Positions 17,219-64,000 are shown, numbered from the stretch's first letter. The stretch is DNA of 64,000 nt from Candidatus Woesearchaeota archaeon (GCA_964606775.1 CAZSGW010000003.1:13335-77334); one strand, 5' to 3'. Translations and numbers: made by a program. The notes: generated by a model from the letters alone, not told the origin.

Positions 17219-18583
17219 ATGAAAAAAGATTTTTATATAATTTCAACATATCCAGAAAGAGTTTGTGGGGTTGGAACATTTACACGAGACTTTACTAATG
17301 CTTTGGGAAAATTCTCTGAAAAAGTAGGAAAAATAAATATTGCGGCAATTAATGATAAAGATTCTAATTATTATGCTTATCCTGTTACAAAAGAAATAAA
17401 ACAATATGACCCTGATTCTTGGAGTTCAGTAACTCAGGAAATAATCTCTGAAAATAAAAATAGAAATGTTAAGCCCACAATAATTCTTCAACATGAATAT
17501 GGAATTGATCCTGCGGATGATGGAGAATATGGAAAAGGTATAAACTTTGTTAGAACTGCAAAACAGTTTTACGAAGAAAGTTTTCCTGTGATTTCTTATT
17601 TACATACGGTTAAGGAAGAACCAGAGCAACATCATAAGGAAGTTTTAAGAGACCTCTCTAAATATTCGGATGGTTTGGTTGTTACTGCAAATAAGGCGGT
17701 TAAGATTTTATCCTCTTCAAATTATGGTGTAGATCCTGCTAAGTTGAAGCATATTGATCATGGAACAAGAGATTTTTCAAGAGAAGGAAGGGACGAGGTT
17801 AAAGAAAAATACGGATTAGGAGGAGTTCTTCTTTATACTACGATGGGTATGAAGGGAAAGAGAAAAGGTTTGGAATCAGCTGTTGAAGCATGGGGTAAGT
17901 TTTTGAATGAAAAAGTCTCGAATGAAGACAGAAGTAAACTTTGTTACCTGATTGCTGGAGGGTATCATCCAAATGCTGTAAAGCAGGGATTTGATTTAGA
18001 ATATGATGAAATATTGGAGAAGAGTATAAAGAAAAGTAATCTTAAACATCTTCTTACCCAATCTCCTTCTGAGTTAGGAAGTGCGGCAAGAGATAATGAT
18101 TTAGTTTTGTTGGAACCTCCAGTGAGAGACCACTTTTTATCTGAACAGATGTTAATAGATTTATATACAATGAGCAATGGAGTTCCATTATTATATCCTG
18201 GAAAGGACCAAATTTCAAGTGGGATTCTTGCTGATACAGTTGGTTCTAAAAGAGTCGCAATAACTACTAAATTTTTGTATGCTAAAGAGTTGTTATTGCC
18301 TGAGCCTGAAAAAGGAGATAATAAGGGAATAATTGGAATAGATGATCCGAGTGCAAGAGGTATTCTCGTTGATTTTGAGGATGTTGTGAATCAAACTTCG
18401 GAGGCATTTGATTATCTGACTTACAACGAAAATTCAAGAATTCATATGGAATCTATGTCTACGTTGAGAGGTTATGAGATGAGATGGCAAAATGTTGTTG
18501 AGAATTTCTTGAAGTATTTGGAAGTTATAGGAGAAAAAAAGAAAATGAAACAAGGAAAAGATCCTGTTTTCAGAAGAAAATAA
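17219..18583 (+). CDS. glycosyltransferase family 4-like protein
   Basis: 454 aa. N-terminal FYIISTYPERVCGVGTFTRDF resembles the ISTYPPRxCGIATFT motif of archaeal and bacterial GT4 enzymes. The rest is too divergent to confirm by eye. Confidence 0.45.
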   Translation: MKKDFYIISTYPERVCGVGTFTRDFTNALGKFSEKVGKINIAAINDKDSNYYAYPVTKEIKQYDPDSWSSVTQEIISENKNRNVKPTIILQHEYGIDPADDGEYGKGINFVRTAKQFYEESFPVISYLHTVKEEPEQHHKEVLRDLSKYSDGLVVTANKAVKILSSSNYGVDPAKLKHIDHGTRDFSREGRDEVKEKYGLGGVLLYTTMGMKGKRKGLESAVEAWGKFLNEKVSNEDRSKLCYLIAGGYHPNAVKQGFDLEYDEILEKSIKKSNLKHLLTQSPSELGSAARDNDLVLLEPPVRDHFLSEQMLIDLYTMSNGVPLLYPGKDQISSGILADTVGSKRVAITTKFLYAKELLLPEPEKGDNKGIIGIDDPSARGILVDFEDVVNQTSEAFDYLTYNENSRIHMESMSTLRGYEMRWQNVVENFLKYLEVIGEKKKMKQGKDPVFRRK

Positions 18584-21616: not shown

Positions 21617-22084
21617 TTGTCTGATTAAATGTCCTACTATGAATGTAATTGCAATAACGACTATTGCTACAAGTAAATGTTCCCCTATTTTCATCCAAGG
21701 ATTGTCTTTTCTTTCTTTAGCTACTTTATAACTAAATAGGCTTAGGATAATTATTCCAATTCCTATGTCTATGAATATTGCCAACCTTAGATAGATAAAT
21801 AAAATTGGAAGTATGAAAATGCTTGCGAAGAGTAGTTTTGAAAAGAATGTTGCGAATGTTGCTTTCCAGATGTTTTTGTGACTTGTTTTGTGGTTTGCAG
21901 ATTCTTCTGAGAGGTGGATTCCAAAGGCGTCTGAAAATGCGTCCGCGATTGCAACTGAAAGTATTCCTCCTAGAACTGCTAGTTTTGAATTTGTGCTTGC
22001 GTACAATCCAATTATCACTCCAAGAGTGGTTATAACACCTGAAGTAATTCCAAATCCAAAACCTCTTTTAATGAATTGGTTCAT
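21608..22084 (-). CDS. VIT1/CCC1-family small membrane protein
   Basis: 158 aa. Gly-rich TM helices with DAFSDAFG and GxxxG-like motifs, as in VIT/DUF125 proteins. Confidence 0.5.
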   Translation of the reverse strand: MNQFIKRGFGFGITSGVITTLGVIIGLYASTNSKLAVLGGILSVAIADAFSDAFGIHLSEESANHKTSHKNIWKATFATFFSKLLFASIFILPILFIYLRLAIFIDIGIGIIILSLFSYKVAKERKDNPWMKIGEHLLVAIVVIAITFIVGHLIRQLF

Positions 22085-22104
22085 AATTGTCCAACGAAGA
22101 ATTG

Positions 22105-23475
22105 TTATAAAAACTTAACCATGTAAGTTCTTTCGAGTTTGTAACTGAGTTTTTTGTAATAGTTCCTTACACCCACTCCTGAGATTACGAGAAGTTTTCT
22201 GCAATCTTTCTTTTTAGAAATATTTTCAGCTTCCTGCATTAGCCATTTTCCTAGTCCTTGGTGTTGCGCTCCAAAACCTTCTTTCATTTTTTCTCCTATT
22301 TTCAAAGCTTTCCCATAAACATGAAGTTCCCTTACAACTGCATATTTTCCCATAACCCTTAGTCTTAGTAATCCAAACAATATATCGTCTTTGTTTACAA
22401 TTTCTAAAAAATATTCATCTCCTTTTGATGATCTGTATTTTGTAACTTTTAGATTTAGGTCAAGATTAACTTCTCTTTTGTCTCTTAGTGCAAAACCTAT
22501 CTCTCGGTATCTTATTTCTTTCAATTTAGAATTCTTTTTTCTTAATTTTTCTTCAATGTCTTTTCTTAGGTCGATGTTTTTTGTTCCTGAGACTATGAAT
22601 TCAGGGGGAATTTCTCTCATTACTCTCATTACTCTGCAATATCTTGGAACTTGTTTTAGCATTTGAACTAAGACGTCTTCGATTTGTTTTTTTGAATAAG
22701 TTGTGTATTCTTTGTCCCAATACATTTTTTCTAGTTGGCTTCCGGGCATGACTTGGCAAGGATAGAGTTTTAGCTGATCTGGTTTGAATCTTTTGTCGGA
22801 GAATAATTTTTTGAAAAGTTTTATGTCTTTTTTTGGATTGCTTCCTGGAAGTCCTGGCATTATGTGGTAACCGACTTTGAATCCTGCATTTTTTAGACAG
22901 GCTGTTGCTTTTGCTACATCTTCTACGGTATGTCCTCTTTGGACTTTTTTGTAAATTTTATTGTCGATTATTTGAACTCCTAATTCAACTCTTGTGCAAC
23001 CGAACTCTCTCATTCTGTCAGTGTATTTACAGCAAACATCTGGCCGTGTTTCTATACATAATGCCACGCATCTGTATTTCGATTTTTCGTTTAATCTTTG
23101 GGCTTGTTTTAATGTTGAAGATTTTTTGTGATTGAGTGCATCGTAAATTCCTTTTATGAATTTGTATTGGAATCTTTTTGGATATTCTAAGAAAGTTCCT
23201 CCCATAATTATTATTTCAATTTTTTCTGTCGGGTGATTCATTGCTTTGAACGCTTTGATTCTTGATTTTACTTGTTTGTAAGAATCGTAATCTAATGCTT
23301 TGGCTCTTAGAACTACGGGGGATTTTGGAGTGTAGCTTTGAGGAACGTTTAGATTTGGACAGTAGATACAATTTCCGTGTTCACATTTTCTTGGTGGAAG
23401 CATAATTGCAACAGGAGTTATTCCAGATATTGTTTTTGTTGGTTTTCGAACTTCGTTTTTTTCTGGAGGTTTCAT
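22105..23475 (-). CDS. elp3: Elp3-like tRNA uridine-34 acetyltransferase (radical SAM + GNAT)
   Basis: Start trimmed to MKPPEKN at 23475. CEHGNCIYCP radical-SAM cluster, HIMPGLPGS Elp3 motif, and C-terminal acetyltransferase region. Confidence 0.85.
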   Translation of the reverse strand: MKPPEKNEVRKPTKTISGITPVAIMLPPRKCEHGNCIYCPNLNVPQSYTPKSPVVLRAKALDYDSYKQVKSRIKAFKAMNHPTEKIEIIIMGGTFLEYPKRFQYKFIKGIYDALNHKKSSTLKQAQRLNEKSKYRCVALCIETRPDVCCKYTDRMREFGCTRVELGVQIIDNKIYKKVQRGHTVEDVAKATACLKNAGFKVGYHIMPGLPGSNPKKDIKLFKKLFSDKRFKPDQLKLYPCQVMPGSQLEKMYWDKEYTTYSKKQIEDVLVQMLKQVPRYCRVMRVMREIPPEFIVSGTKNIDLRKDIEEKLRKKNSKLKEIRYREIGFALRDKREVNLDLNLKVTKYRSSKGDEYFLEIVNKDDILFGLLRLRVMGKYAVVRELHVYGKALKIGEKMKEGFGAQHQGLGKWLMQEAENISKKKDCRKLLVISGVGVRNYYKKLSYKLERTYMVKFL

Positions 23476-54607: not shown

Positions 54608-54736
54608 ATGAGCCTGCACGGATTTGAACCGTGGGCCTCTGGCTTTCTTAGACTCAGAGTCTATGAAATCAACAATCCGAAGCAGAGGATCGCAGTCATA
54701 TAAGACCAGCGCTCTGACCAGACTGAGCTACAGGCT
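54608..54736 (-). tRNA. tRNA-Ile(UAU): tRNA-Ile (anticodon UAU) with 54-nt intron at 37/38
   Basis: Minus-strand exons: GAGCCUGUAGCUCAGUCUGGUCAGAGCGCUGGUCUUAUA, intron, then AGCCAGAGGCCCACGGUUCAAAUCCGUGCAGGCUCA. Anticodon stem CUGGU/GCCAG, loop C-U-UAU-A. Intron approx 54644-54697. Confidence 0.7.
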
Positions 54737-54789
54737 CATGTAGAAAATTGTCTAATAAGATATTTAAAGGTTTTTGAGGTGGGATTATT

Positions 54790-56013
54790 ATGTTATTGGG
54801 ACTTGTAGGAAAGCCGTCGGTAGGAAAGTCAACTTTTTTTAAAGCTGCAACTTTGGCGGAAGTTGAAATAGCTTCGTATGCCTTTACTACAATTAAGGCA
54901 AATCATGGAGTTGGTTATGTAAAAGTTGATTGTATAGACAAAGAATTTAATACTCAATGCAATCCCTCGAAAGGATTTTGTATAAATCATAATCGTTTTG
55001 TTCCTGTTGAATTGATGGATGTTGCGGGTTTAGTTCCTGGTGCTTCAGAAGGAAAAGGATTGGGAAATCAATTCTTGGACGATTTGAGAGAAGCGGATGT
55101 TTTTGTGCAAATTGTGGATTGTTCTGGAACGACAAATGCCGAAGGTAAATTGTTGGAAGAGGGGGAGGCTTATGAAGTTCATGAAGATGTTGTTTTCTTG
55201 GAGAATGAATTAGATACTTGGTATTATAATATTTTGATGAAGGTTTGGAATACCTTTGCACGTAAAGTTGAAATGGAAGGAAGTAAATTTTCTGAGGCAG
55301 TTGTTAAACAATTTTCTGGATTAAAGGTTAATGAAAATCACGTTAAAGATGTTTTATTAAAATTGAATCTTCCTGAGAAACCTACTTCTTGGAGTAATGA
55401 ACAGGTTAGAAGTTTTGCTTCTTGGTTGAGAAAAATTTCAAAGCCGATGATTATAGCTGCGAATAAGATTGATTCTGATAAGGGAGAGGAGAATTATAAT
55501 AAGTTGAAAGAAATGTTTAAGGATTATTTGGTTGTTCCGTGTTCTGCTGATTCTGAATTAGCTCTTAGACAGGCTACCAAGTCCGGTTTGATTGAGTATG
55601 TTCCAGGTGAAAGAGATTTTAAGATTTTGGCACCTCAAGGTGTACCCTCTAAAGAAGGCAAAGATTTGGGAGAAAAACAGAAAGAAGCTTTGAATAAGAT
55701 TAAAGAAAAGGTTTTAGATAAATTTGAGTTTGGGACGGGAGTTCAGAAAGTTTTGAATGCTGCGGTGTTTGATATTTTGGATTATGTTGCTGTTTTTCCC
55801 GCTTCTGCAAATAAACTGGGAGATAGCAAAGGGAATATTTTACCTGATTGTTTCTTGTTGCCTAATGGTTCAACAGCTTTAGATTTTGCTTATTATTTGC
55901 ATACTGATTTTGGGAAGAATTTTATTAAAGCTATTAATGCAAGAAGTAAGATGGCTTTGGGTAAAGATTATGTTTTGAAACATAGGGATGCTTTAGAGAT
56001 TATTACTCGTTAG
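54790..56013 (+). CDS. ychF: Obg-family ATPase YchF/OLA1-like with C-terminal TGS domain
   Basis: 407 aa. G1 GLVGKPSVGKSTFF, then VPVELMDVAGLVPGASEGKGLGNQFL, closely matching YchF, plus a TGS-like C-terminus. Confidence 0.7.
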   Translation: MLLGLVGKPSVGKSTFFKAATLAEVEIASYAFTTIKANHGVGYVKVDCIDKEFNTQCNPSKGFCINHNRFVPVELMDVAGLVPGASEGKGLGNQFLDDLREADVFVQIVDCSGTTNAEGKLLEEGEAYEVHEDVVFLENELDTWYYNILMKVWNTFARKVEMEGSKFSEAVVKQFSGLKVNENHVKDVLLKLNLPEKPTSWSNEQVRSFASWLRKISKPMIIAANKIDSDKGEENYNKLKEMFKDYLVVPCSADSELALRQATKSGLIEYVPGERDFKILAPQGVPSKEGKDLGEKQKEALNKIKEKVLDKFEFGTGVQKVLNAAVFDILDYVAVFPASANKLGDSKGNILPDCFLLPNGSTALDFAYYLHTDFGKNFIKAINARSKMALGKDYVLKHRDALEIITR

Positions 56014-56043
56014 ATTTAATAATTCTTAATTCTTTTACTGAAG

Positions 56044-56493
56044 ATGAATGAAGTGGTGAAGCTTGCAAAGAAATTGGAAAAATTTTTGAAGCCGTATTGT
56101 AAAAAGATTAAGCTTGCAGGAAGTATTCGTAGAAAAGTTGAAAATCCTTTGGATATTGATTTTGTTTTAATTCCCAAGGACAAAGAAAAATTGGAAGATT
56201 TTTTGAAAACAAAAGGCAGGAGACTTGAGGGCGGAGAACATGAGTCAACTTGGAAAATTGAAGGAGTTAAAGTTGAATTATATTATACAATTCCTGAAGA
56301 ATGGGGTGCTGCTTTGTTAGCTTATTCTTCTGAAAAAGGGGCTGCCATTGGATTAAGAAAAATTGCAAAGGAAAAAGGATTTCATTTAACAAATCATGGA
56401 TTGTTTAAAGGGAAGAAAAGAATTGCTGGAAAAACCGAAAAAGAAATTTATTCTGCTCTGGGAAGGACGTATAAGAGACCGGAAGATAGGTAG
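56044..56493 (+). CDS. minimal Pol-beta/Pol X-like nucleotidyltransferase (149 aa)
   Basis: GSIRRKVENPLDIDFVL (GS...DxD palm motif) and a C-terminal KTEKEIYSALGRTYKRPEDR resembling the Pol X C-terminus (TEEDIF..LGLPYIPPELR). Confidence 0.5.
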   Translation: MNEVVKLAKKLEKFLKPYCKKIKLAGSIRRKVENPLDIDFVLIPKDKEKLEDFLKTKGRRLEGGEHESTWKIEGVKVELYYTIPEEWGAALLAYSSEKGAAIGLRKIAKEKGFHLTNHGLFKGKKRIAGKTEKEIYSALGRTYKRPEDR

Positions 56494-56523
56494 TTTTAAA
56501 AAAGAATTTTAATTGATGTTGCA

Positions 56524-56934
56524 ATGGAAAAAAAGAATTGTGATGCTTGTTCTGGTTTGTGTTGTAAATATGTTGCTTTGGAAATTGATTGTCCTGAGGA
56601 TGAAGAAGATTTCGAGGATATTAAGTGGTATGTTCTACATGAGAAAGTTGCTGTTTATGTTGAAGACGATGGAACGTGGAATTTGGAATTTATAACTCCT
56701 TGTAAATATGTTAATGAAGATGGCAAGTGTTCTGTTCATGAAGAATTCACGAACAATCCTGAAATTAAACGTCCTAATATTTGTAAGGAATTTAATGTGG
56801 ATGTTTGCCCTTTTCATAATGAATATAATGAAAAATATAGATTCGAAAAAATTGAAGATGTCGAGAATTATATAAAGAACGTTTTTAAGAAGGGAAAACA
56901 TTTTATTCCTGAAGATGAAGAAGATGAAGATTAA
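56524..56934 (+). CDS. YkgJ/UPF0153-family CxxCxxCC metal-cluster protein
   Basis: 136 aa. CDACSGLCCKYV and CKYVNEDGKCSVHEEF...RPNICKEF fit the CxxCxxCC zinc/iron-chelating domain. Acidic C-terminal tail. Confidence 0.55.
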   Translation: MEKKNCDACSGLCCKYVALEIDCPEDEEDFEDIKWYVLHEKVAVYVEDDGTWNLEFITPCKYVNEDGKCSVHEEFTNNPEIKRPNICKEFNVDVCPFHNEYNEKYRFEKIEDVENYIKNVFKKGKHFIPEDEEDED

Positions 56935-57187
56935 GTTGCATCCTGGGAGTTCTCAGGAGAAAATTGAAAAAATTTCTGAAGCACCAGAGGCGTACCCCGA
57001 AAAATCTTCGAAAAAGATTTTTACTAAGGGCGATTATTATGAGGTTTGGTTAAAAGAGAAGCCGATTGATAATAAAGCAAATAATGCTTTAGAGAAATTT
57101 TTGAAAAAATATTTTGGAAAGCCTGTCAAAATTGTTTCGGGATTTACTTCAAAGATTAAGAAAGTTGAGTTAGTGTCCAGGACATAA
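56915..57187 (+). CDS. DUF167 (YggU) family protein
   Basis: 90 aa. KANNALEKFLKKYFGKPVKIVSGFTSKIKKVEL matches the DUF167 core (GKAN..L..FLA...GV....V.IVSG.TSR.K.V.I). Confidence 0.6.
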   Translation: MKKMKIKLHPGSSQEKIEKISEAPEAYPEKSSKKIFTKGDYYEVWLKEKPIDNKANNALEKFLKKYFGKPVKIVSGFTSKIKKVELVSRT

Positions 57188-57679
57188 TAAATTATATTCT
57201 ACTTTGTCTAGTTTTTCTAAAGATTTTCCCATGTCTTTTGGTGAACTTTCTTTAAAGTCAGTTCTTCCTATTCCATTATGAAATAAAACGTCTCCTGAGA
57301 ATAGAATTTTATTTTCTTTTAGTAAAATACATGTGCTTCCAGGTGTGTGGCCTGGGGCTTCGATTATTTCAAAAGTATCTCCTTGTAATTTTTTTATGTC
57401 TTGGATGTTATCATCTTCGAAGTCTTTTTTATTTCCGTAGATTTTTGCATTTTTGAAAATTTCAGTGTTTCCGACATGGTCCCAGTGATTGTGGGTTAGA
57501 ATGATTGTTTTTATCTCTGAGGGTTTGGTATTTAATTCTTCAAGTGATTCAATTAATTCTTCTTGGTTTTCTTTTGAGCTTGTGTCAATTAATATTCCTT
57601 TGTTTTTCATTAGATAAACCCTTGATCCAAAGTGTGTTAGTTCTATTGAGAAAATGTTTTTGTCCATGTTTTTTATCAT
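57170..57679 (-). CDS. metallo-beta-lactamase fold hydrolase (small)
   Basis: 169 aa. ILTHNHWDHVGN (HxHxDH) and a downstream APGHTPGS motif. Confidence 0.7.
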   Translation of the reverse strand: MIKNMDKNIFSIELTHFGSRVYLMKNKGILIDTSSKENQEELIESLEELNTKPSEIKTIILTHNHWDHVGNTEIFKNAKIYGNKKDFEDDNIQDIKKLQGDTFEIIEAPGHTPGSTCILLKENKILFSGDVLFHNGIGRTDFKESSPKDMGKSLEKLDKVEYNLLCPGH

Positions 57680-57729
57680 ATCTTTTGGAAGTAAATAAAC
57701 TATTTAAAGATATTTTTAGTTTTTTGTTT

Positions 57730-58131
57730 ATGAAATATGAAGTTGCAGAGGATTTACAAATTATTGCGGACGAGATTTCTAATTTATTATTTCCTCATAT
57801 AGATATGTCTCGTGTTAAATGTTTTAGGAGTTTTGGGAGTTCTTCTCGGGGAACTATTGCTCGTTGTCATGCTCTTGGAAAGGTTATGCAGATGACTATT
57901 GGAGTTGAGGCTCATTATTCTTTAGAGTTTTTGTGCCCTCGATTTGAGAAGCTTTCTGATGAAGATAAAGTTAAGACGATTATTCATGAGTTGATGCATA
58001 TTCCTCAAACTTTTGGAGGAGGATTTAGACATCATAATTGGGTTACTGAGAAAAATGTGAATTTACATTATCAGACTTATCTTGCTAAAAAAGAAGGTCG
58101 AGAGAAAAAAAGAAGTTGGTTTGGAATTTAG
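57730..58131 (+). CDS. predicted zinc metallopeptidase (HExxH), SprT/WLM-like
   Basis: Start trimmed to MKYEVAED at 57730. IIHELMHIP zinc-binding motif. Confidence 0.5.
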   Translation: MKYEVAEDLQIIADEISNLLFPHIDMSRVKCFRSFGSSSRGTIARCHALGKVMQMTIGVEAHYSLEFLCPRFEKLSDEDKVKTIIHELMHIPQTFGGGFRHHNWVTEKNVNLHYQTYLAKKEGREKKRSWFGI

Positions 58132-58553
58132 TATTGGAATTTTAGATTTCTTTCAAGTTTGGATATTTCTTTTTTAGTTAAAGATACTAATTCTATTTTA
58201 TTTTCTTTGAATATTTTTTCTTCTGTTTCGGAAGGATGAATTTCGTAATGGTTGAATCTATTCCATTTTCCATCAAATTGACAAAGTTCAAATTCATAAT
58301 CTGTATTTATTTCGTATGGTGCTGAACAAACTGTTTCACAATTATGTGGTTGATAGGTGTGAAGTGTTTTGATTCGGTTGTATTTTAAACATTTGATCAT
58401 TTCCTCGAATTTGAATAAAGTTCCAAATCCTCTTTCAAATTTTTCTATTACAGGGGTTAAAAAATTTTCTTTAATTGTGTATAACATGAATCCATTGTCG
58501 TTTAACGAATTGTCGTTATCATGTATTTCAAACCCGTAGATTTTCTTTTCCAT
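58128..58553 (-). CDS. hypothetical protein
   Basis: 141-aa ORF. Confidence 0.4.
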   Translation of the reverse strand: MEKKIYGFEIHDNDNSLNDNGFMLYTIKENFLTPVIEKFERGFGTLFKFEEMIKCLKYNRIKTLHTYQPHNCETVCSAPYEINTDYEFELCQFDGKWNRFNHYEIHPSETEEKIFKENKIELVSLTKKEISKLERNLKFQY

Positions 58554-58592
58554 TTTAATTAAGATTATAAATCCTTTTTATCTATTGTTGTT

Positions 58593-58943
58593 ATGAAAAT
58601 AAAAAAAGGTTCAAAGGTTATTGAGGTTAATCCAGTTAAGAAATTATCTTTATTTGGTAAATTTAAGGGGTTGATGTTTTCTCGTCGGAAAAAAGCTAAA
58701 GCTCTTTTATTTGAATGGAAAAATTGTGCGATACATTCCTTTTTTGTTTTTTATCCCTTCCTTGCTTTGTGGTTAGATGGGCATAATAAAATTGTTGATA
58801 AGAAGATTGTTAAACCTTTTAGTTTGTGTGTGTTTTCGGGAAAAAATTCTGAAAAACTTTTGGAAGTTCCGATAAATAAAAAATATCGAGGAGAAATTTT
58901 ATCTCTCGTCGGTGAGAAAACATTTAAAAAGAATAAAGATTAA
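58593..58943 (+). CDS. DUF192 family protein
   Basis: 116 aa. FKGLMFSRR...ALLFEW...FVFYPFLALWLDGHNKIV fits the DUF192 (COG1430) pattern. Confidence 0.5.
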   Translation: MKIKKGSKVIEVNPVKKLSLFGKFKGLMFSRRKKAKALLFEWKNCAIHSFFVFYPFLALWLDGHNKIVDKKIVKPFSLCVFSGKNSEKLLEVPINKKYRGEILSLVGEKTFKKNKD

Positions 58944-58988
58944 CTTATATTAGGTCAAAATGCTTTTGACTAAAAATATTGAAAGGAG

Positions 58989-59201
58989 GTGATTGAAATG
59001 GGAAAAGTTATTGTTAAGAATGCTGTTAATAGAAAACCGGGACATCTTTACTATGTTGATGGTAAAGGAAATGTTTGTGAGGCTGTGATGGCTAGAGGTG
59101 GAAAGAAGAAAAAGAAAGCCACTAAGAAAAAAGCTGCAAAGAAAAAAACTACTAAGAAAAAAACAGCAAAGAAGAAAACTACTAAGAAAAAGAAAAGGTA
59201 A
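58989..59201 (+). CDS. small protein with poly-Lys (TKKK-repeat) C-terminal tail
   Basis: 70 aa. Globular 38-aa N-terminus, then KKKKKATKKKAAKKKTTKKKTAKKKTTKKKKR, encoded by imperfect 21-bp tandem DNA repeats. Confidence 0.45.
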   Translation: MIEMGKVIVKNAVNRKPGHLYYVDGKGNVCEAVMARGGKKKKKATKKKAAKKKTTKKKTAKKKTTKKKKR

Positions 59202-59244
59202 ATTTTCTTAGTTTAATTTTTTTGTTTTTATTTTTTAATTAATT

Positions 59245-59604
59245 TTATTTTGTGTATTTTGATAATTCCTTGTAATAATTGAGGATTATTGTCATTGCTG
59301 TTTGAGAAGTTTTAGTTCCTAAATTATGTTCGTGCCATTCTTCGTTTTCAAAATATATTCCTGGATGAGTTCCAAGAGAGATTCCGTCTAAACCGTTTTT
59401 ATTGTCCCATCTTAATTTTATTTCTGGTTTTCCCATCATGTCTTCTAATGAATTTGAAAGTTTTTCTGCCATCTCTTCTATTTTTTCTTTTCCTTTGTTT
59501 TTGTAAAAATCTTTAATTCCTGTTTGCCAGTTTTTTATTGGTTTAATATCTGGAAGAAAAACTTCTCTATTTTTATGCCAGTATAAATTTGGTATGTGTT
59601 CCAT
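59245..59604 (-). CDS. hypothetical protein
   Basis: 119-aa ORF. Confidence 0.4.
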   Translation of the reverse strand: MEHIPNLYWHKNREVFLPDIKPIKNWQTGIKDFYKNKGKEKIEEMAEKLSNSLEDMMGKPEIKLRWDNKNGLDGISLGTHPGIYFENEEWHEHNLGTKTSQTAMTIILNYYKELSKYTK

Positions 59605-59709
59605 AATTTTACTAAGAAAAACTATTTATATTTATTATTATATTTTATTGATGTGACAAAAAAACCAACAATAAATAAAAAACATTAAAACGATTTTTTA
59701 TTTATACAT

Positions 59710-59763
59710 GTTAGGCACAATTTATACCTCAAACCAGTCTGTCTTAAAACAGAAAGATTAATT
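59710..59763. repeat. repeat A copy 1 (54 bp, identical to 63220-63273)
   Basis: GTTAGGCACAATTTATACCTCAAACCAGTCTGTCTTAAAACAGAAAGATTAATT is an exact match to copy 2. It contains a small hairpin, TCTGT-cttaaa-ACAGA. Confidence 0.9.
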
Positions 59764-59786
59764 AATTTGGATTTGTTGGAGAGTGT

Positions 59787-60059
59787 ATGGAATTGAATGA
59801 AATTGAGAAAGGAGATACTTTATTAATTAAAGGCAAAAATTTTCAGGTAGTAGAAGACTGGGATGAGGGATTTGATGAACTCTCTCCCGAAGAATATCGA
59901 TGGTATTCTATATTTGAAATGATTGAGATTAAAAGTAAGAAAATGACTGCTACCCATACACTTATTTATTATCAGGATGAAAAAGATATTTTTTTAATAA
60001 ACAAAATCAACCAAAAGAAACAAAAAGTAAAAAAAGAGGAGATAAAACTCCTCTCTTAA
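59787..60059 (+). CDS. cassette ORF 1a (hypothetical, 90 aa)
   Basis: ORF between repeat A1 and repeat B1. No homology to the unit-2 cargo. Confidence 0.4.
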   Translation: MELNEIEKGDTLLIKGKNFQVVEDWDEGFDELSPEEYRWYSIFEMIEIKSKKMTATHTLIYYQDEKDIFLINKINQKKQKVKKEEIKLLS

Positions 60060-60062
60060 TTT

Positions 60063-60272
60063 TTACCATTGACCTCCAGTATTTTTCGTGACTTTTCCTT
60101 CACGAAGATCAAACATGGAAGCTTGATAATTGTTTATTGGATTTTCATTGAATTTAGCCCCAGTAATAATCCCCTCTGGAGCGTGGACACTTAGTTTATC
60201 TCCATTAGGAAAGATTTTTATGTAATCTGCTTTCCCTTTACTTTTTCCTTGAGAACCTTTATAATCTGACAT
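60063..60272 (-). CDS. cassette ORF 1b (hypothetical, 69 aa)
   Basis: Minus-strand ORF whose start lies 20 bp from repeat B1, which places B in its upstream region. Confidence 0.4.
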   Translation of the reverse strand: MSDYKGSQGKSKGKADYIKIFPNGDKLSVHAPEGIITGAKFNENPINNYQASMFDLREGKVTKNTGGQW

Positions 60273-60291
60273 GACAACCCCCTTTTTTTTA

Positions 60292-60377
60292 AGTTAGACA
60301 ATGAAGAACTATTACAAAGTTATTCCATGAATGTTAATTTTATGTTAAATTAATGTTAAGAAATTGTTAAGAAAAGT
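60292..60377. repeat. repeat B copy 1 (86 bp, identical to 63820-63905)
   Basis: AGTTAGACAATGAAGAACTATTACAAAGTTATTCCATGAATGTTAATTTTATGTTAAATTAATGTTAAGAAATTGTTAAGAAAAGT is an exact match to copy 2. Non-coding, with stops in all frames. Confidence 0.9.
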
Positions 60378-60406
60378 ATTTAATTGAAAGATTCTTTTGT
60401 TAAATA

Positions 60407-60571
60407 ATGGGATTTTTAGATTGCTGTCCTTTATTAATAATCTATGGAATAATATTTTTAATAGGTGTTTTATTATTGATTATTGCATGGACTTTTGACT
60501 TTTTCAAAAATAAAAAGTTCGCAGATTTTTTTGAAAATTTAGCAGATAAAATAAAAGATTTCTTTACTTAG
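60407..60571 (+). CDS. small membrane peptide (54 aa, hypothetical)
   Basis: Hand-translated MGFLDCCPLLIIYGIIFLIGVLLLIIAWTF... with one TM helix. A low-confidence small ORF. Confidence 0.3.
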   Translation: MGFLDCCPLLIIYGIIFLIGVLLLIIAWTFDFFKNKKFADFFENLADKIKDFFT

Positions 60572-60846
60572 CTTTTGATTTTCCTAAACGAGATAAAATA
60601 AAATAGATTACTATTATCATTCCTGCTCTAATTATGATGTTTAAGGTTATATTTCCCGAAAGACCTATTCCAAATGTTGCTGGATTTATTACAACACCTA
60701 TTCCACAAGAAAGCAAAAAGGAAACGATTTTCCATGTTTTGTATGCCATAACCAAATTTTTAATTAAAAATCTGAAAATTAAGAAAATAATTTTTAATTT
60801 TATAAAATATTCTTTAATTTTGTGTATAAACTATAAAATTAAGATT

Positions 60847-62754
60847 ATGAAAAAAATAATTACTCTTTTGGGAATTGTTCTTATTGGACTTTTTATTATA
60901 AATCAATCTTGTAAAAAAGATAAGGATTTTGAAGAAATTTCAGAACAAGAACAAACTGAAATTGGCAATATAATTAATGTGGATATTGAAGGAGATGTAG
61001 GAACAATGAATTTTAATGATAGTATTATAATAACTGATAATTCAGTTTGCCAAGATACCGTAATAAAATATGATCTAAAATTTTTTAATGAGAGCAATAA
61101 TCAAATAAAAAATTTAGATATTAATTATTATAATCGTGAGGGAAAGTCTCATATTTATATTTATGATCCTGAAAGAAGATATGAATCTTGTTATCTCAGC
61201 GGAACCCCTTTAGAAATAAAATCCTATCTTGATTCTTTGTCAAATACAAAATCCTTAAATGATATTGTAGATATTGAAGAATCAGACGAAGTAATAACAT
61301 TAACAATTGCTGCAATTGTTTTTCTCGTTGGGATTACAAAACTTCAATTAGATGTTATTGAAAATGTGCATGAAGTCGATAAATTTTTAACTTCCGATAT
61401 AATTGAAATAAATAATAATTCTGTTACATATTGTAAAACCATGTCAGAAATAACAGATTATTATGAACATCTCAAAACAACTAAAAAAAGCATTAAAGAA
61501 ATAATTATAAGTTATATTACTTTTGTTGCTAATGGTCAAACTTATATGAATACTTCTGTGAAAGATTTTGCAATTGATTGTTCCAAAAATTTTATTAATG
61601 ATAAAGTAAAAAGTTTATTGAAAAATAAAGCTCAAGAAGTTTGGAGTTTAAATAATTCTTATATTGATACAGCTAAATTTTATTTTGTTGTAAATTATCC
61701 TTGTGATTTATTAAGTGGAGATGATGAATGTTCTCATATAGAAATACTTTATGCAAAATCAAATATCATCTTTGGAACTAATTATTGTAGTGATTTACCT
61801 CTTAAAATTCCAGTAGCAAACTTCACTGCTAATAAGACAACAATAACAAAGGGAGAGTCAATTAATTTTACAGATCAATCTACAAACACTCCTACAAACT
61901 GGTTATGGGATTTTGGAGATGGTAAGACTTCTTCATTACAAAATCCATCTCATACATATAATTCTTTTGGCATATATTCTGTTTCATTGACTGCCAGTAA
62001 TTCAGATGGTTCAGACATTAAAACTAAAGTAGATTATATTAGTGTTGAAAGAGAGATTGTTTATGGTAATGGAGTAACAGATTATAATGGGAATACTTAT
62101 GAAACAATTATTGTTGGGAATCAGGAATGGATGGTAAGCAATCTAAAAGCAACATCTTATGCAGATGGGACTCCTATCCCTAGTGGAAATCAATATTGTG
62201 ATTTAGATGGATGTCATTTTATTAGGAATAAAGGAAATTATACTTCTAAATATTATTTTTGGCTTTATGAAGACAAACAAAATAAAAATAAAACAGGAGC
62301 TTTTTATACTTGGGCAGCAGTTATGAATGGTGCACCAGGCAGTAATTTAAATCCTAGCAATATTCAAGGAGTTTGTCCAACAGGATGGCATGTTCCAAGC
62401 GATGCTGAATGGAAGGAACTTGAATCTTTTATGGGAATGGGTTCTTTAGAGCTGGAGAAATATGGATATCGTGAACTTTTAGAAGTGGAAAGTTTGATGT
62501 CTGAATCAATGGATGGAACAAATAGTACAGGGTTTGCTACAATTGCAGAAGGTTATAGATCAACTTATCTTAGTCCTAGTTGTCCTGATTGTAGTTATTC
62601 TTGGAAAAATAATGGACATGATGCAGTTTTTTGGACAAGTACAGATAGTAGTAATTCATCTATTTATCGTCTCTTTTATAATAATTCAGACTATATTAAA
62701 AGAGATAAGTTTACTAAAGATTATGGTTTAAATGTAAGATGTGTAAAAGATTAA
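60847..62754 (+). CDS. secreted/lipoprotein-like surface protein with PKD domain and Fibrobacter-succinogenes-major-paralogous-type C-terminal domain
   Basis: Start trimmed to signal peptide MKKIITLLGIVLIGLFIINQSC at 60847. The PKD-like segment is ANFTANKTTITKGESINFTDQSTNTPTNWLWDFGDGKTS...YSVSLTASNSDGSD. The C-terminal GAFYTWAAV...GVCPTGWHVPSDAEWKELE matches the TIGR02145-type domain. Confidence 0.7.
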   Translation: MKKIITLLGIVLIGLFIINQSCKKDKDFEEISEQEQTEIGNIINVDIEGDVGTMNFNDSIIITDNSVCQDTVIKYDLKFFNESNNQIKNLDINYYNREGKSHIYIYDPERRYESCYLSGTPLEIKSYLDSLSNTKSLNDIVDIEESDEVITLTIAAIVFLVGITKLQLDVIENVHEVDKFLTSDIIEINNNSVTYCKTMSEITDYYEHLKTTKKSIKEIIISYITFVANGQTYMNTSVKDFAIDCSKNFINDKVKSLLKNKAQEVWSLNNSYIDTAKFYFVVNYPCDLLSGDDECSHIEILYAKSNIIFGTNYCSDLPLKIPVANFTANKTTITKGESINFTDQSTNTPTNWLWDFGDGKTSSLQNPSHTYNSFGIYSVSLTASNSDGSDIKTKVDYISVEREIVYGNGVTDYNGNTYETIIVGNQEWMVSNLKATSYADGTPIPSGNQYCDLDGCHFIRNKGNYTSKYYFWLYEDKQNKNKTGAFYTWAAVMNGAPGSNLNPSNIQGVCPTGWHVPSDAEWKELESFMGMGSLELEKYGYRELLEVESLMSESMDGTNSTGFATIAEGYRSTYLSPSCPDCSYSWKNNGHDAVFWTSTDSSNSSIYRLFYNNSDYIKRDKFTKDYGLNVRCVKD

Positions 62755-63047
62755 TTTGGAATATTGTCTTTTAATTTTTTCTTGCGACTAATCAAAATCA
62801 ATATTATTTCAATCAACAAAAATAATCCTACTCCTAAGAAAAAATTAGTTTTAACATATTTTGAAGTAGCATCTATTATTGCATTTTGGACAGGGCTATA
62901 TTTAGTTAAAAAAACATATAAATTTTGACTCAGATACAATAAAGGAATCAATAAAATTCCCAAAATTCTTTTTTTCTTTGTTATAAAAAAACTTATTACA
63001 AAAACAATTATTGCAGTTACTATATTTAATAGGTATAATTGCATCAT
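62751..63047 (-). CDS. small membrane protein (hypothetical)
   Basis: 98 aa with three TM helices. Confidence 0.4.
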   Translation of the reverse strand: MMQLYLLNIVTAIIVFVISFFITKKKRILGILLIPLLYLSQNLYVFLTKYSPVQNAIIDATSKYVKTNFFLGVGLFLLIEIILILISRKKKLKDNIPN

Positions 63048-63090
63048 GGGATAATTAACAATTTTATCTTTAAAAATGTTGAGATATAAA

Positions 63091-63125
63091 AATAAAAAGT
63101 GCCTAACAATGCATAATAAAACATT
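63091..63125. repeat. repeat C copy 1 (35 bp or more, identical to 63966-64000)
   Basis: AATAAAAAGTGCCTAACAATGCATAATAAAACATT. Its GTGCCTAAC is the inverted complement of GTTAGGCAC at the start of repeat A2, about 110 bp downstream. Confidence 0.85.
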
Positions 63126-63219
63126 GCTTACTTTCTTCTAAAACCAAACCCCTTCTCTAATCATCTTTCCGGGAAATTCAAAATTCCTGCTTCTATTCGC
63201 AACGTTTTATATGCAGTAC

Positions 63220-63273
63220 GTTAGGCACAATTTATACCTCAAACCAGTCTGTCTTAAAACAGAAAGATTAATT
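63220..63273. repeat. repeat A copy 2
   Basis: Exact 54-bp match to 59710-59763. Its last 6 bp overlap the stop of the 63268-63573 gene. Confidence 0.9.
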
Positions 63274-63573
63274 TTTGTTTAGTTCATTAAAAAGAACAGG
63301 GAATTCTTCAACCATTTCAGGCATTTCTTTTTTTACAACTTTAAGGAAATCCAACTCCTTTTTGCTAAGACTTTGATATTTATTTAATCTTTCAACAAAT
63401 GAATCTAAATATGTTTCTAAACATTCTTTAGAATGTAGCCACGTTTCTCTAAAAGAACAAACTTCACAAAGAGGTTCTGGAACAACCCCAGGATTTGAAG
63501 TGTTCCTATTTATTGTTTTCCAAGAAATTGAAGCTGCTTTCTTACCACAACGAACACATTTGTTTTTATTCAT
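63268..63573 (-). CDS. cassette ORF 2a: zinc-ribbon protein (101 aa)
   Basis: N-terminal CVRCGKK...CEVCS forms a CxxC...CxxC pair. Confidence 0.45.
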   Translation of the reverse strand: MNKNKCVRCGKKAASISWKTINRNTSNPGVVPEPLCEVCSFRETWLHSKECLETYLDSFVERLNKYQSLSKKELDFLKVVKKEMPEMVEEFPVLFNELNKN

Positions 63574-63588
63574 TGTAGTTTAAAAGAG

Positions 63589-63804
63589 CTAAAATTTTTT
63601 AAAGGTTTTTAATATCTCTATTTCCTTGGGAGCCAAGCCATCCATTCGAGCTTGAACATTTCCAAAAGAGTCTTTGTACTGGATATCATAATGATCTTTA
63701 TGCTTAGGAGTTAAAACCCTCCTCAAAGGAGCATCAGAATTATTCCAAAATGTCGAAGGCCTTGGATCTCCTTTTTTGTTATTTAAATGATTATCAAAAC
63801 TCAT
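63589..63804 (-). CDS. cassette ORF 2b (hypothetical, 71 aa)
   Basis: Minus-strand ORF whose start lies 16 bp from repeat B2, the same arrangement as ORF 1b with B1. Confidence 0.4.
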   Translation of the reverse strand: MSFDNHLNNKKGDPRPSTFWNNSDAPLRRVLTPKHKDHYDIQYKDSFGNVQARMDGLAPKEIEILKTFKKF

Positions 63805-63819
63805 AGCTTTAAATTTTAA

Positions 63820-63905
63820 AGTTAGACAATGAAGAACTATTACAAAGTTATTCCATGAATGTTAATTTTATGTTAAATTAATGTTAAGAAATTGTTAAGA
63901 AAAGT
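63820..63905. repeat. repeat B copy 2
   Basis: Exact 86-bp match to 60292-60377. Confidence 0.9.
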
Positions 63906-63965
63906 CTGGAATTGGATGATTCAATGCATGATTAGAAAAAGCTGTTAAAAAACTCAAAGAACAAT

Positions 63966-64000
63966 AATAAAAAGTGCCTAACAATGCATAATAAAACATT
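63966..64000. repeat. repeat C copy 2 (truncated by window end)
   Basis: Exact match to 63091-63125 as far as the end of the window. Confidence 0.85.

What the first reader, a model, noticed from the sequence alone, without database searches (positions are those of the whole stretch)
59600..64000. Cassette-like units: non-homologous small-gene pairs bounded by identical non-coding repeats A (54 bp), B (86 bp) and C (35 bp or more)
Two units share exact flanks. A1 at 59710-59763 and B1 at 60292-60377 bracket ORFs of 90 and 69 aa. A2 at 63220-63273 and B2 at 63820-63905 bracket ORFs of 101 aa (zinc ribbon) and 71 aa. The A-to-B spacing is about 580-600 bp in both units, but the enclosed proteins are unrelated. 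In both units the B repeat sits 16-20 bp upstream of a roughly 70-aa minus-strand gene, which suggests a shared promoter or leader. Unit 2 is additionally bracketed by direct repeat C (63091-63125 and 63966-64000, 875 bp apart), as expected for att-like duplications around an inserted segment. C also carries the 9-bp inverted complement (GTGCCTAAC) of the first 9 bp of A (GTTAGGCAC). A degenerate C-like sequence with that 16-bp core missing lies upstream of A1. Conserved ends with variable cargo in this pattern is reminiscent of integron cassettes or a small non-autonomous mobile element family, yet no integrase or transposase is present in the window. It could instead mark a hypervariable locus maintained by recombination between the repeats. 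This is the most likely location of something undescribed in the window.
Basis: seen in the sequence. Interest (0 to 1): 0.75.

Follow-up and report, generated by a model that had tools for sequence, protein, structure and literature searches.

The report
Integron-like gene cassette array in archaeon
The repeats mark the start of an integron-style gene-cassette array, with no integrase nearby, in the chromosome of a tiny DPANN archaeon; this kind of element was first reported in archaea in 2022, so it is a good new example rather than a new kind of system.

Summary
All three repeats exist exactly as described. The units were drawn in the wrong place. Repeat C, the ~95 bp after it and the first 7-9 bp of A form one 126-nt imperfect palindrome (63101-63226). 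It has the hallmarks of an integron attC site: GCCTAAC...GTTAGGC ends (RYYYAAC/GTTRRRY), R and L boxes, an extrahelical base in the canonical position, a variable centre and a better-folding, purine-rich bottom strand. Six copies, here and in a Woesearchaeota MAG from the same sample series, lose similarity right after GTT, the integron crossover point. The joints look recombinant: the short first site (AAACCAAC...) ends in GTTAGGC, and a long site (GCCTAAC...) ends in GTTGGTTT. Different cassettes lie between the same ends on different contigs. Cassette proteins are 97-100% identical between hosts whose pyruvate kinases are 49% identical. None of 40 window ORFs tested is an integrase. The rest of A, and at least the distal end of B, are native promoter/leader DNA of a four-gene module that relatives keep at a fixed locus. 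Weak points: a model built from published attC sites scores the site at only 9.8 bits, the cassettes are long and multi-gene, and the array order depends on assembly. Verdict: an archaeal CALIN-type array, confidence about 0.6.

The parts
59663..59716 (+). First site of the array. A short hairpin site, AACCAAC...stem-loop...GTTAGGC. It is a hybrid of a short attC-like or attI-like site (left part) and the R' core of the first cassette.
   Evidence: The site is conserved in L004 and L002 directly after unrelated flanks. The stem sequence differs but the hairpin and the ATTAAAAC loop are kept. The L004 version has the canonical attC geometry. The window version is degenerate and the scans do not detect it.
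59710..59763 (+). Repeat A1. The R' core GTTAGGC (59710-59716) marks the cassette start after G|TT. The rest of A is a promoter/leader module.
   Evidence: It is 54/54 identical to A2. A-right plus a ~24-nt leader sits at the same distance from the ATG of four different genes. The motif ACAGAAAG-ATTAATT is homologous to the upstream region of the 91-aa gene in relatives.
59787..60059 (+). 90-aa gene, first gene of the conserved four-gene module.
   Evidence: ORF found. It is 97% identical in L001, and 91/92-aa homologues sit in the same position in L016-L020.
60063..60272 (-). 69-aa gene, member of a conserved small-protein family (KIFPNGDKLSVHAP.GIITGAKFN).
   Evidence: It is 100% identical in L001. 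Thirteen homologue clusters at 67-80% identity were found, including one in a Bacteroidia MAG.
60286..60394 (.). Repeat B1, the divergent intergenic region between the 69-aa (-) and 54-aa (+) genes. B-left is 60286-60318. B-right is 60319-60394 and holds four TGTTAA boxes in 11-bp phase (60332-60370).
   Evidence: The repeat was found. The phased boxes occur only in B1 and B2, with 0 expected. The end of B-right (ATTGTTAAGAAAA.TATTT.ATTG) is conserved upstream of the 74-aa gene in relatives. Logan contig L011 independently confirms 60348-63116.
60407..60571 (+). 54-aa membrane-protein gene of the module.
   Evidence: ORF found. It is 39% identical to the 49-aa protein of L001, and 55-aa homologues occur in relatives.
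60564..60749 (-). 61/63-aa membrane-protein gene of the module.
   Evidence: It is 51% identical to the 62-aa protein of L001, and 63-aa homologues occur in relatives.
60847..62754 (+). 635-aa PKD plus Fib_succ_major surface protein, cargo of the first cassette.
   Evidence: Pfam hits PF09603 (3.9e-36) and PF18911 (1.5e-18).
62751..63047 (-). 98-aa membrane protein, last gene before attC1.
   Evidence: ORF found, with no family hit.
63101..63226 (+). attC-like site 1 (top strand is +): R'' GCCTAAC | AATGC | ATA | A | TAAAAC ... variable centre ... GTTTTA | TAT | GCAGTAC | R' GTTAGGC. The palindrome extends to 63092-63235.
   Evidence: Supported (folds; scans; copy alignment; model hit with exact ends, 9.8 bits; pair counts; skew).
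63220..63273 (+). Repeat A2, the start of cassette 2. It overlaps the stop codon of the 101-aa gene.
63268..63573 (-). 101-aa zinc-ribbon protein, cargo of cassette 2.
   Evidence: ORF found. Only one homologue cluster exists (98% identity, same sample series).
63589..63804 (-). 71-aa protein, cargo of cassette 2.
   Evidence: ORF found. It is 100% identical on Logan contig L005, where the downstream context is different.
63814..63922 (.). Repeat B2, a copy of B1 inside cassette 2.
63918..63966 (+). Remnant of the 3' end of an 81-aa gene that is intact in L001.
   Evidence: It is 98% identical to the tail of the 81-aa gene next to an attC in L001.
63976..64000 (+). attC-like site 2, cut by the window end (R'' GCCTAAC at 63976-63982).
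   Evidence: The homologous full site is at L001 47-173.

Best explanation
This is the beginning of a chromosomal integron-type cassette array without a nearby integrase (a CALIN) in a DPANN (Nanoarchaeota/Woesearchaeota-type) archaeon. The recombination sites are hairpin-forming attC-like sites: a 126-nt family, plus a short 54-nt first site. Each cassette starts at the TT of GTTAGGC (the first bases of repeat A) and ends with the G of the next site. Inferred mechanism: the bottom strand of each site folds into an imperfect hairpin, and an IntI-type tyrosine recombinase supplied from elsewhere in the genome or community cuts it in the AAC triplet (G|TT on the top strand). Cassettes are thereby excised as circles and reinserted, mostly at the first site. 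The rest of A, and at least the distal end of B, are not recombination sites. They are promoter/leader modules that belong to a conserved four-gene cluster. They are shared between cassettes, which probably lets ordinary homologous recombination swap cargo inside cassettes as a second layer of mosaicism. Shown here: the site anatomy, the breakpoints at GTT, the reciprocal hybrid joints, the alternative cassette contents between identical ends, the near-identity of cassettes between divergent hosts, and the absence of an integrase in the window. Inferred: the recombinase, single-strand folding in vivo, circular intermediates, promoter activity of A and B, and binding of a regulator to the TGTTAA boxes.
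For: (1) The site ends are GCCTAAC and GTTAGGC, which fit RYYYAAC/GTTRRRY, with a 7/7 R box. The consensus and crossover point are taken from Nivina et al. 2016, PMC5027507. (2) The full canonical geometry is present: R'', a 5-nt spacer, 3 bp, one extrahelical base on the AAC arm, 6 bp, and the mirror image. A strict scan finds exactly this one site in 64 kb, on the + strand only, against 0.003 expected from 300 shuffles. (3) An unbiased geometry-only scan recovers every family member in array orientation, including the short first site of L004 and a hairpin in relative L020. That is 6 hits in about 17.6 kb against about 0.09 expected, and the scan also recovers 6 of 10 published sites. (4) The arms were aligned with eight experimentally validated attC sites (Ghaly et al. 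2022, Data S9). The four lineage sites pair in the same columns: L box 100% paired, the extrahelical base in the same column, 95% of cells paired against 21-43% when the register is slid, and 8 of 9 L-box pairs changed on both sides. (5) The bottom strand folds better (-19.8 against -17.4 kcal/mol, z about -3.9) and carries the G:T pair. The top strand has GC skew of -0.35 to -0.39. (6) Six copies are 93-98% alike, and differences between copies lie in the centre and the right spacer. Similarity stops right after cGTT and continues in one of two unrelated ways. (7) The joints are hybrids. The first site begins with AAACCAAC and ends in GTTAGGC. A long site begins with GCCTAAC and ends in GTTGGTTT, the exact reverse complement of AAACCAAC. 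The reconstructed empty site folds at -12.1/-12.4 against about -6.9 kcal/mol for the hybrid. (8) Contigs L002 and L004 each carry a different single cassette between the same first site and right junction, and L005+L001 carry several. (9) Cassette proteins are 97-100% identical between the window and the MAG, while the pyruvate kinases are 48.6% identical. (10) Woesearchaeales MAGs with 2-12 attCs and no IntI are already on record.
Against: None of the 40 window ORFs tested is an integrase, and no tyrosine recombinase appears among the genes called on the loci that carry these repeats. A covariance model built only from eight published attC sites finds the site with exact ends and the right strand, but at only 9.8 bits. 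That gives E = 6.4 for the window (rank 6) and 0.44 for the 4.4-kb region. The model skips the AT-rich L box, and it misses L020's hairpin. The cassettes are 0.9-3.5 kb, multi-gene, on both strands and apparently carry their own promoters, unlike typical promoterless single-gene cassettes. Other non-coding modules (the rest of A, B-left, D) are equally conserved between unrelated genes, so not all the mosaicism is explained by recombination at attC sites. Relatives carry the module, and in L020 a single hairpin, at a fixed chromosomal locus. I chose the loop trimming. The order of segments across the 54-131-bp exact repeats rests on metagenome assembly, and only 55882-59739 and 60348-63116 are independently confirmed. 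Orthology of the pyruvate kinases and correct binning of the MAG contigs are assumed.
Confidence: 0.6

Rival explanations
1. The palindrome is an ordinary intergenic punctuation element, for example a terminator or insulator hairpin at the end of one transcription unit followed by promoter A of the next. A, B and D are conserved regulatory DNA. The region is a hypervariable island in which homologous recombination between these shared non-coding modules swaps genes, and no site-specific recombinase is involved.
For: A-right and the end of B-right are conserved upstream of the same genes in relatives. The palindrome always sits just after the end of a + strand gene or gene remnant and just before A. 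Several breakpoints between the window and the MAG lie in B-left or at gene starts, not at the hairpin sites. Non-coding modules are 92-100% identical while the genes between them are unrelated. No integrase was found.
Against: This view does not explain why the hairpin ends match RYYYAAC/GTTRRRY with the extrahelical base in the canonical position. It does not explain why similarity breaks exactly after GTT. It does not explain why the two kinds of joints carry reciprocally complementary ends (AAACCAAC with GTTGGTTT, GCCTAAC with GTTAGGC). The two site types share only short patches of identity at the joint, which is poor substrate for homologous recombination.
Confidence: 0.22
2. The 126-nt palindrome is a miniature inverted-repeat transposable element (MITE) or a REP/ERIC-like selfish repeat that has inserted several times in this region.
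For: The element has long terminal inverted repeats, no coding capacity, multiple near-identical copies and breaks assemblies.
Against: There are no target-site duplications. No copies occur elsewhere in 59 kb of the window, and all copies have one orientation and are clustered. In some copies the right 'terminal repeat' is replaced from the fourth base inward (GTTGGTT against GTTAGGC), which a transposed MITE would not show. No transposase is present.
Confidence: 0.08
3. The mosaic is partly an artefact: assemblers joined fragments of co-existing strains across exact repeats of 54-131 bp, so the 'identical flanks, different cargo' picture is exaggerated.
For: The Logan contigs of the same runs all break about 30 nt inside A, B or the palindrome. 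The window's segments 59740-60347 and 63117-64000 could not be confirmed independently.
Against: The repeats and their different neighbours exist on separate, independently assembled contigs (L001, L002, L004, L005, L006, L011). The cargo differences and hybrid joints therefore do not depend on any one path through the repeats.
Confidence: 0.05
4. The palindrome, or A, is a gene for a structured small RNA.
For: The hairpin is conserved with compensatory changes across lineages. The small A hairpin keeps pairing through G-U on the minus strand in L001.
Against: No Rfam family matches even at E = 1 in the window locus, or at E = 0.1 in related loci. The centre of the element is its most variable part. 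The break at GTT and the hybrid joints are DNA-level features.
Confidence: 0.05

Closest known systems
Archaeal integron cassette arrays / CALINs (Ghaly et al. 2022, Sci Adv, PMC9668308)
   Same: Both are clusters of attC-type hairpin sites in archaeal MAGs, mostly without an integrase. That study lists Woesearchaeales MAGs with 2-12 attCs and 0 IntI. [quoted passage not shown]
   Different: Here the sites are long (126 nt) and very AT-rich. The cassettes are multi-gene and appear to carry their own promoters. The first site is itself a hairpin site. Detection rests on my own scans, not on IntegronFinder or HattCI.
Sedentary chromosomal integrons such as the Vibrio cholerae superintegron with its VCR sites (VCR2 is 133 bp; PMC5027507)
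   Same: Both have long attC sites that are highly similar within one array, a chromosomal location and strain-to-strain variation in cassette content.
   Different: Vibrio arrays have IntIA, attI and Pc at one end, and tens to hundreds of mostly single-gene cassettes. Here only 2-3 sites are seen per contig and no integrase.
Promoter-bearing cassettes of chromosomal integrons, such as toxin-antitoxin cassettes (from general knowledge; exceptions to promoterless cassettes are noted in PMC5027507, and TA cassettes in PMC9668308)
   Same: Cassette 2 holds two small genes read against the array direction from their own upstream region (B2).
   Different: No toxin or antitoxin family is detectable in any of the small proteins.
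MITEs and ERIC/REP-type intergenic palindromes
   Same: Both are imperfect palindromes of about 130 nt, non-coding, repeated and intergenic.
   Different: Here the copies are clustered and co-oriented, lack target duplications, have canonical attC ends and geometry, and show recombinant joints at GTT.

Membership tests
Integron attC recombination site | Core sites 5'-RYYYAAC-3' and 5'-GTTRRRY-3' at the two ends, pairing as the R box (PMC5027507) | tested here: met
   The ends are GCCTAAC (63101-63107) and GTTAGGC (63220-63226), pairing 7/7. The first site and alternative joint (AACCAAC / GTTGGTT) each deviate from the consensus at one position, as several published archaeal sites do.
Integron attC recombination site | Imperfect hairpin with an L box, and extrahelical base(s) on the same arm as AAC in the top strand | tested here: met
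   The layout is ATA|A|TAAAAC paired with GTTTTA|TAT. The extrahelical A falls in the same alignment column as in eight validated sites, and the L box is 100% paired. Scans that fix only the geometry find all family members. I chose the loop trimming.
Integron attC recombination site | Unpaired central spacer between the R and L boxes | tested here: inconclusive
   The spacers are 5 nt (AATGC) and 7-8 nt (GCAGTAC/GCGGTCTC), but TGC and GCA within them can pair. The right spacer varies between copies.
Integron attC recombination site | Variable terminal structure; overall length 57-141 nt (range from general knowledge) | tested here: met
   The sites are 126-128 nt (long) and 54 nt (first site). 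Differences between copies lie in the centre and the right spacer.
Integron attC recombination site | [quoted passage not shown] | tested here: met
   Folding gives -19.8 against -17.4 kcal/mol. There is one A.C on the top strand, which is G:T on the bottom. The top-strand GC skew is -0.35 to -0.39 and the AT skew is negative. The criterion is not met by the short first site or L020's hairpin, and the skew alone is weak evidence (19% of background windows are as skewed).
Integron attC recombination site | Significant score with an attC covariance model (the operational definition used by IntegronFinder and HattCI+Infernal) | tested here: inconclusive
   Those programs' models are not available here. 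My model, built from 8 published sites, finds 63101-63226 (+) with exact ends but at 9.8 bits: E = 6.4 for the window (rank 6) and E = 0.44 for the region (rank 1). The L box is skipped. L001's copy scores 8.7 bits, and L020's hairpin is not found.
Integron attC recombination site | Recombined by an integron integrase between G and TT | not testable with these tools
   Only sequence footprints are available: the similarity break right after GTT and the reciprocal hybrid joints.
CALIN (cluster of attC sites lacking an integron integrase) | At least two attC sites less than 4 kb apart, with no IntI nearby (PMC9668308; PMC9024848) | tested here: met
   The window has one complete site, one site cut by the window end 875 bp further on, and a degenerate first site 3.4 kb upstream. 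L001 has two complete sites 1.9 kb apart, and L004 has two sites 2.2 kb apart. No integrase was found. This holds only if the sites are accepted as attC.
Complete integron | intI gene (PF00589 plus the IntI-specific domain) next to attI and Pc | tested here: not met
   None of 40 window ORFs of 157-505 aa matches PF00589. The genes left of the array are small proteins of unknown function and housekeeping genes.
Complete integron | Cassettes mostly single, promoterless ORFs in the array orientation | tested here: not met
   The cassettes are 0.9-3.5 kb, hold 2-8 ORFs on both strands and have conserved upstream modules.
MITE | Terminal inverted repeats flanked by target-site duplications, with copies dispersed in both orientations | tested here: not met
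   Inverted ends are present, but there are no duplications. All copies are clustered and co-oriented, and none occurs in the other 59 kb.
Known structured RNA family (Rfam 15) | Match to a curated covariance model | tested here: not met
   Nothing matched at E <= 1 in 59500-64000, or at E <= 0.1 in L001, L004, L016, L018 and L020.

The most novel reading that the evidence does not exclude
DPANN archaea may run a stripped-down, integrase-less form of the integron. In this reading, the mobile unit is a ~188-bp attC-plus-promoter joint carrying variable multi-gene cargo. Insertion occurs into an attC-like hairpin rather than an attI site. The recombinase is supplied in trans, possibly by another community member or the symbiont's host. 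Cassettes would then flow between very divergent DPANN lineages living together. The population variants seen here would be direct evidence of recent cassette recombination inside archaea, which has so far been shown only in E. coli assays.
Probability: 0.15. Interest if true: 0.7.

Novelty: new member of a known kind. Interest (0 to 1): 0.45.

Why it matters
Integrons were reported in archaea only in 2022. Nearly all cases lack an integrase, and activity has been shown only in a bacterial assay. This locus offers natural footprints of recombination in an archaeal population: reciprocal hybrid joints at G|TT, and different cassettes between the same two ends. It also shows near-identical cassettes in hosts whose housekeeping proteins are about 50% identical. 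These observations make two questions testable with the existing reads from this sample series: whether archaeal cassette arrays are active, and who supplies the recombinase. The locus also shows that very AT-rich attC sites can escape models trained on GC-rich sites, so such arrays may be under-counted in DPANN genomes.

Tried and rejected
1. Extending the window. The source is an 84,141-bp NCBI contig, but its DNA is not in the position index. What follows attC2 therefore remains unknown.

2. Collection scans. The left-arm 22-24-mer hits only three contigs of one Woesearchaeota MAG among the species representatives. It hits nothing in the JGI metagenomes or viral contigs. The A-core 20-mer gave four chance hits only.

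3. Published-attC covariance model. The default filters found nothing. With filters off the score was weak.

4. 'GTGCCTAAG' upstream of the module in relatives. I first took this for a homologous R''. I rejected it because it is the last codons of the peptidase M16 gene.

5. The Bacteroidia contig L012, with a tyrosine recombinase near the 67-aa homologue. It has no attC array or repeats, so it looks like a phage-like element, not an integron.

6. Genes in equivalent slots as diverged alleles. Rejected for 69 against 70 aa and 90 against 108 aa, which give no similarity.

7. Cargo as toxin-antitoxin or defence genes. No Pfam, NCBIfam or PADLOC hit.

8. RNA gene, plasmid or phage origin. No Rfam, PLSDB or phage match.

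Full report
**Observation.**
A is 54/54 identical (59710-59763 and 63220-63273). B is 86/86 identical within a 109-nt stretch at 94% (60286-60394 and 63814-63922). C is 35/35 identical (63091-63125 and 63966-64000), and its second copy is cut by the window end. None occurs elsewhere in the window, and shuffled controls give zero. The four small ORFs exist, and the two gene pairs are unrelated.

**Host.**
The window is AT-rich (31% GC; the locus itself is 27%). It encodes FEN1, both RFC subunits and aminoacyl-tRNA synthetases, and it has an intron-containing tRNA. The closest named FEN1 relatives are Nanoarchaeota and other DPANN MAGs, at about 75% identity. The locus is therefore chromosomal, in a DPANN archaeon.

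**What C really is.**
Read on from C1, the sequence forms one imperfect palindrome that ends in the first bases of A2:

GTGCCTAAC-AATGCATAATAAAACATTGC ... GCAACGTTTTATATGCAGTAC-GTTAGGCAC.

- Both strands fold into a long hairpin. The bottom strand folds better, at -19.8 against -17.4 kcal/mol, with z about -3.9 for each.
- The ends GCCTAAC and GTTAGGC fit the integron attC core sites RYYYAAC and GTTRRRY. These definitions, and the crossover in the AAC/GTT triplet, come from Nivina et al. 2016.
- The internal layout parallels attC-aadA7 position for position. The window site reads GCCTAAC|AATGC|ATA|A|TAAAAC ... GTTTTA|TAT|GCAGTAC|GTTAGGC. The aadA7 site reads GTCTAAC|AATTC|ATT|C|AAGCCG ... CGGCTT|AAT|TCAAGC|GTTAGAT (sequence).

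**How strong is the attC resemblance?**
- A strict scan for the whole architecture finds exactly one site in 64 kb, on the + strand only. Dinucleotide shuffles give 0.003 per window. The scan is stringent: it recovers only 3 of 10 validated sites.
- A scan that fixes only AAC, GTT and the L-box geometry gives 0.32 hits per shuffled window. It recovers every member of this family in array orientation: the window site, both sites of L001, the site of L002, both sites of L004 including the short first site, and a hairpin in the relative L020. That is 6 hits in about 17.6 kb of loci, where about 0.09 are expected. It also recovers 6 of 10 published sites.
- I aligned the arms of four lineage sites with eight validated attC sites and counted pairs under the published structure. 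Overall, 95% of cells pair, against 21-43% when the register is slid. The L box pairs in 100% of cells, and 8 of its 9 pairs change on both sides. The extrahelical base falls in the same column in all sequences. I chose where to trim the loops, so the placement of the right arm is partly fitted.
- The long sites also have the expected strand skew.
- Against this, a covariance model built only from the eight published, GC-rich sites finds 63101-63226 with exact ends and the correct strand, but at only 9.8 bits. That is E = 6.4 for the window and 0.44 for the region. The score comes from the R box alone. The model does not find L020's hairpin. This operational test is inconclusive.

**Related sequences.**
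The left-arm 24-mer occurs in only three contigs among 185,579 species representatives. All three belong to one Candidatus Woesearchaeota MAG, GCA_964462045.1. The 22-mer core of that arm occurs nowhere in the JGI metagenomes or viral contigs. Logan contigs from SRR15425352 and SRR15425353 carry window proteins.
- Two of these Logan contigs match the window at 100% over 55882-59739 and 60348-63116.
- All of the Logan contigs stop about 30 nt inside A, B or the palindrome. That is the expected behaviour of repeats that break assemblies.

**Footprints of recombination.**
- Six copies of the long site are 93-98% alike. Differences between copies lie in the centre and in the right spacer.
- Similarity ends immediately after cGTT and continues either as AGGCACAATTT (repeat A) or as GGTTTTAAACC.
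- The site upstream of A1 is a separate short hairpin. In the MAG it follows a superoxide dismutase gene. In the window it follows an unrelated 119-aa gene. The stem differs (GTATAAAACTGC/GCAGTTTATAC against ATAAATAAAAAAC/GATTTTTTATTTAT), but the ATTAAAAC loop is kept.
- The left end of that short site, AAACCAAC, is the exact reverse complement of the alternative right end, GTTGGTTT. GCCTAAC is likewise the complement of GTTAGGC. The joints observed are therefore the reciprocal hybrids expected after exchange at G|TT between a short site and a long site.
- Rejoining the two halves gives a complete hairpin of -12.1 to -12.4 kcal/mol, against about -6.9 for the hybrid.
- The two site types share little more than GTT and short patches next to it. 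That fits integron-type recombination better than classical att cores or homologous exchange.

**Variable content between fixed ends.**
- L004: first site, A, two small membrane-protein genes, D, three genes, attC, then G|TTG.
- L002: first site, A, 108-aa and 70-aa genes, B-left, D, two genes, attC, then the right junction.
- L005+L001: A, 101/71, 49/83, D, 195/195/111, attC, A, 90/69, B-left, D, GAF-266/81, attC, then the right junction.
- Window: first site, A, 90/69, B, 54/63, PKD protein, 98, attC, A, 101/71, B, a remnant of the 81-aa gene tail, then attC.

The same cassettes thus occur in different orders and positions. Cassette proteins are 97-100% identical between the window and the MAG, whereas the pyruvate kinases are 48.6% identical. 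This points to horizontal sharing, provided the kinases are orthologues and the contigs are correctly binned.

**What A and B are.**
Homologues of the 69-aa protein led to contigs from other samples (L016-L020).
- These contigs carry the same four-gene module (91+, 74-, 55+, 63-) at about 74-80% DNA identity. In several of them it lies between a peptidase M16 gene and MFS/LigT genes.
- The region upstream of the 91-aa gene contains ACAGAAAAG-TATTTAAC, which is homologous to A-right (ACAGAAAG-ATTAATT).
- The region upstream of the 74-aa gene contains ATTGTTAAGAAAA.TTATTTGATTG, which is homologous to the end of B-right.
- The rest of A, and at least the distal end of B, are therefore native promoter/leader DNA of this module, not mobile-element ends.
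- In the array, A-right plus a ~24-nt leader is fused at a fixed distance to the ATG of four different genes.
- B-left and a further 69-nt module, D, recur at 97-100% identity between unrelated genes.
- The four TGTTAA boxes in 11-bp phase are specific to the window's B copies. I infer that they are an operator array.
- This second layer of modularity is not explained by recombination at attC sites. Homologous recombination between shared promoter modules is the simplest account, but I have not shown it.

**What is missing.**
None of the 40 window ORFs tested is a tyrosine recombinase or transposase. No recombinase appears among the genes called on the related array contigs. The cargo proteins match no Pfam, NCBIfam or PADLOC family, and the 101-aa protein is nearly an ORFan. 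No Rfam family, plasmid record or phage record matches the locus.

**Comparison with what is known.**
Ghaly et al. 2022 define archaeal integrons as an IntI gene and/or at least two attCs within 4 kb. They report that most are CALINs, and they list Woesearchaeales MAGs with 2-12 attCs and no IntI. This locus fits that description if the sites are accepted as attC. It differs in four ways: the sites are long and AT-rich, the cassettes are multi-gene and carry promoters, the first site is a hairpin, and there are natural recombinant joints. It is not a complete integron, because the integrase test failed. It does not behave like a MITE, because there are no target duplications, all copies are clustered and co-oriented, and the right end is replaced from inside the repeat.

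**Verdict.**
My confidence is about 0.6 that this is a CALIN-type cassette array whose sites recombine at G|TT. I give about 0.2 to a non-integron hypervariable island built from a terminator-like hairpin plus shared promoters. The smaller remaining shares go to a MITE, an assembly artefact or an RNA gene. It is a new member of a recently described kind. Its main value is the population-level evidence of cassette exchange in DPANN archaea.

Noticed in passing
window 54609-54737 (-): Rfam finds a 129-nt tRNA match (59.4 bits) that ARAGORN did not call. It is presumably an intron-containing archaeal tRNA.
   Followed up: no
window 58989-59201 (+): A 70-aa protein has a C-terminal half made of lysine-rich 15-nt tandem repeats (KKKAT/KKKTT...). 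It sits just upstream of the array and matches no family.
   Followed up: no
window 60847-62754 (+): The cassette cargo includes a 635-aa PKD plus Fib_succ_major protein. Its N-terminus (MKKIITLLGIVLIGLFIINQSC) looks like a bacterial-type lipoprotein signal, so it may have been acquired from another domain.
   Followed up: partly
window 60063-60272 (-); L012 10001-10204: The 69-aa cassette protein belongs to a well-conserved small-protein family. One member, 78% identical, lies in a Bacteroidia MAG on a phage-like contig with a tyrosine integrase, Phage_rep_O and a TrwB-like ATPase.
   Followed up: partly
window 18258-18298 (-) and 22030-22110 (-): These are the two best hits of the published-attC model in the window (19.3 bits, E = 0.014; 15.3 bits, E = 0.18). 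One lies inside a 454-aa ORF and the other spans the junction of two minus-strand genes. They are isolated and probably chance matches.
   Followed up: partly
window 57170-58131 (L006 1609-2570): Just left of the array lie an MBL-fold protein with a faint Anti-Pycsar Apyc1 hit and a 133-aa PhageMetallopep-domain protein. Several small ORFs of unknown function lie beside them. This stretch may also be accessory DNA.
   Followed up: no
L020 about 4035-4130 (minus strand of the locus): Between the stop of the peptidase M16 gene and the attC-like hairpin, a ~20-nt direct repeat (AAAAATGAAAAC[C/T]GGGCATAA) brackets an AT-rich segment of about 65 nt. It looks like a small insertion or duplication next to the site.
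   Followed up: no
L001 1235-1303 and 3616-3684; L002 1364-1433; L004 2190-2258: A further 69-nt non-coding module, D (AAAAATTATTTTTATCTTTATGAACAATCAAAAAGTTTTGTTAATTTTCAGGAATAATTAT...), is 97-100% identical upstream of unrelated gene sets in the MAG. The window has only a weak relative, around 60772-60805.
   Followed up: partly
window 60292-60298 and 63820-63826: B-left begins with GTTAGAC, which also fits GTTRRRY. One breakpoint between the window and the MAG lies just after GTTAGACAAT. No partner arm was found, so its meaning is unclear.
   Followed up: partly
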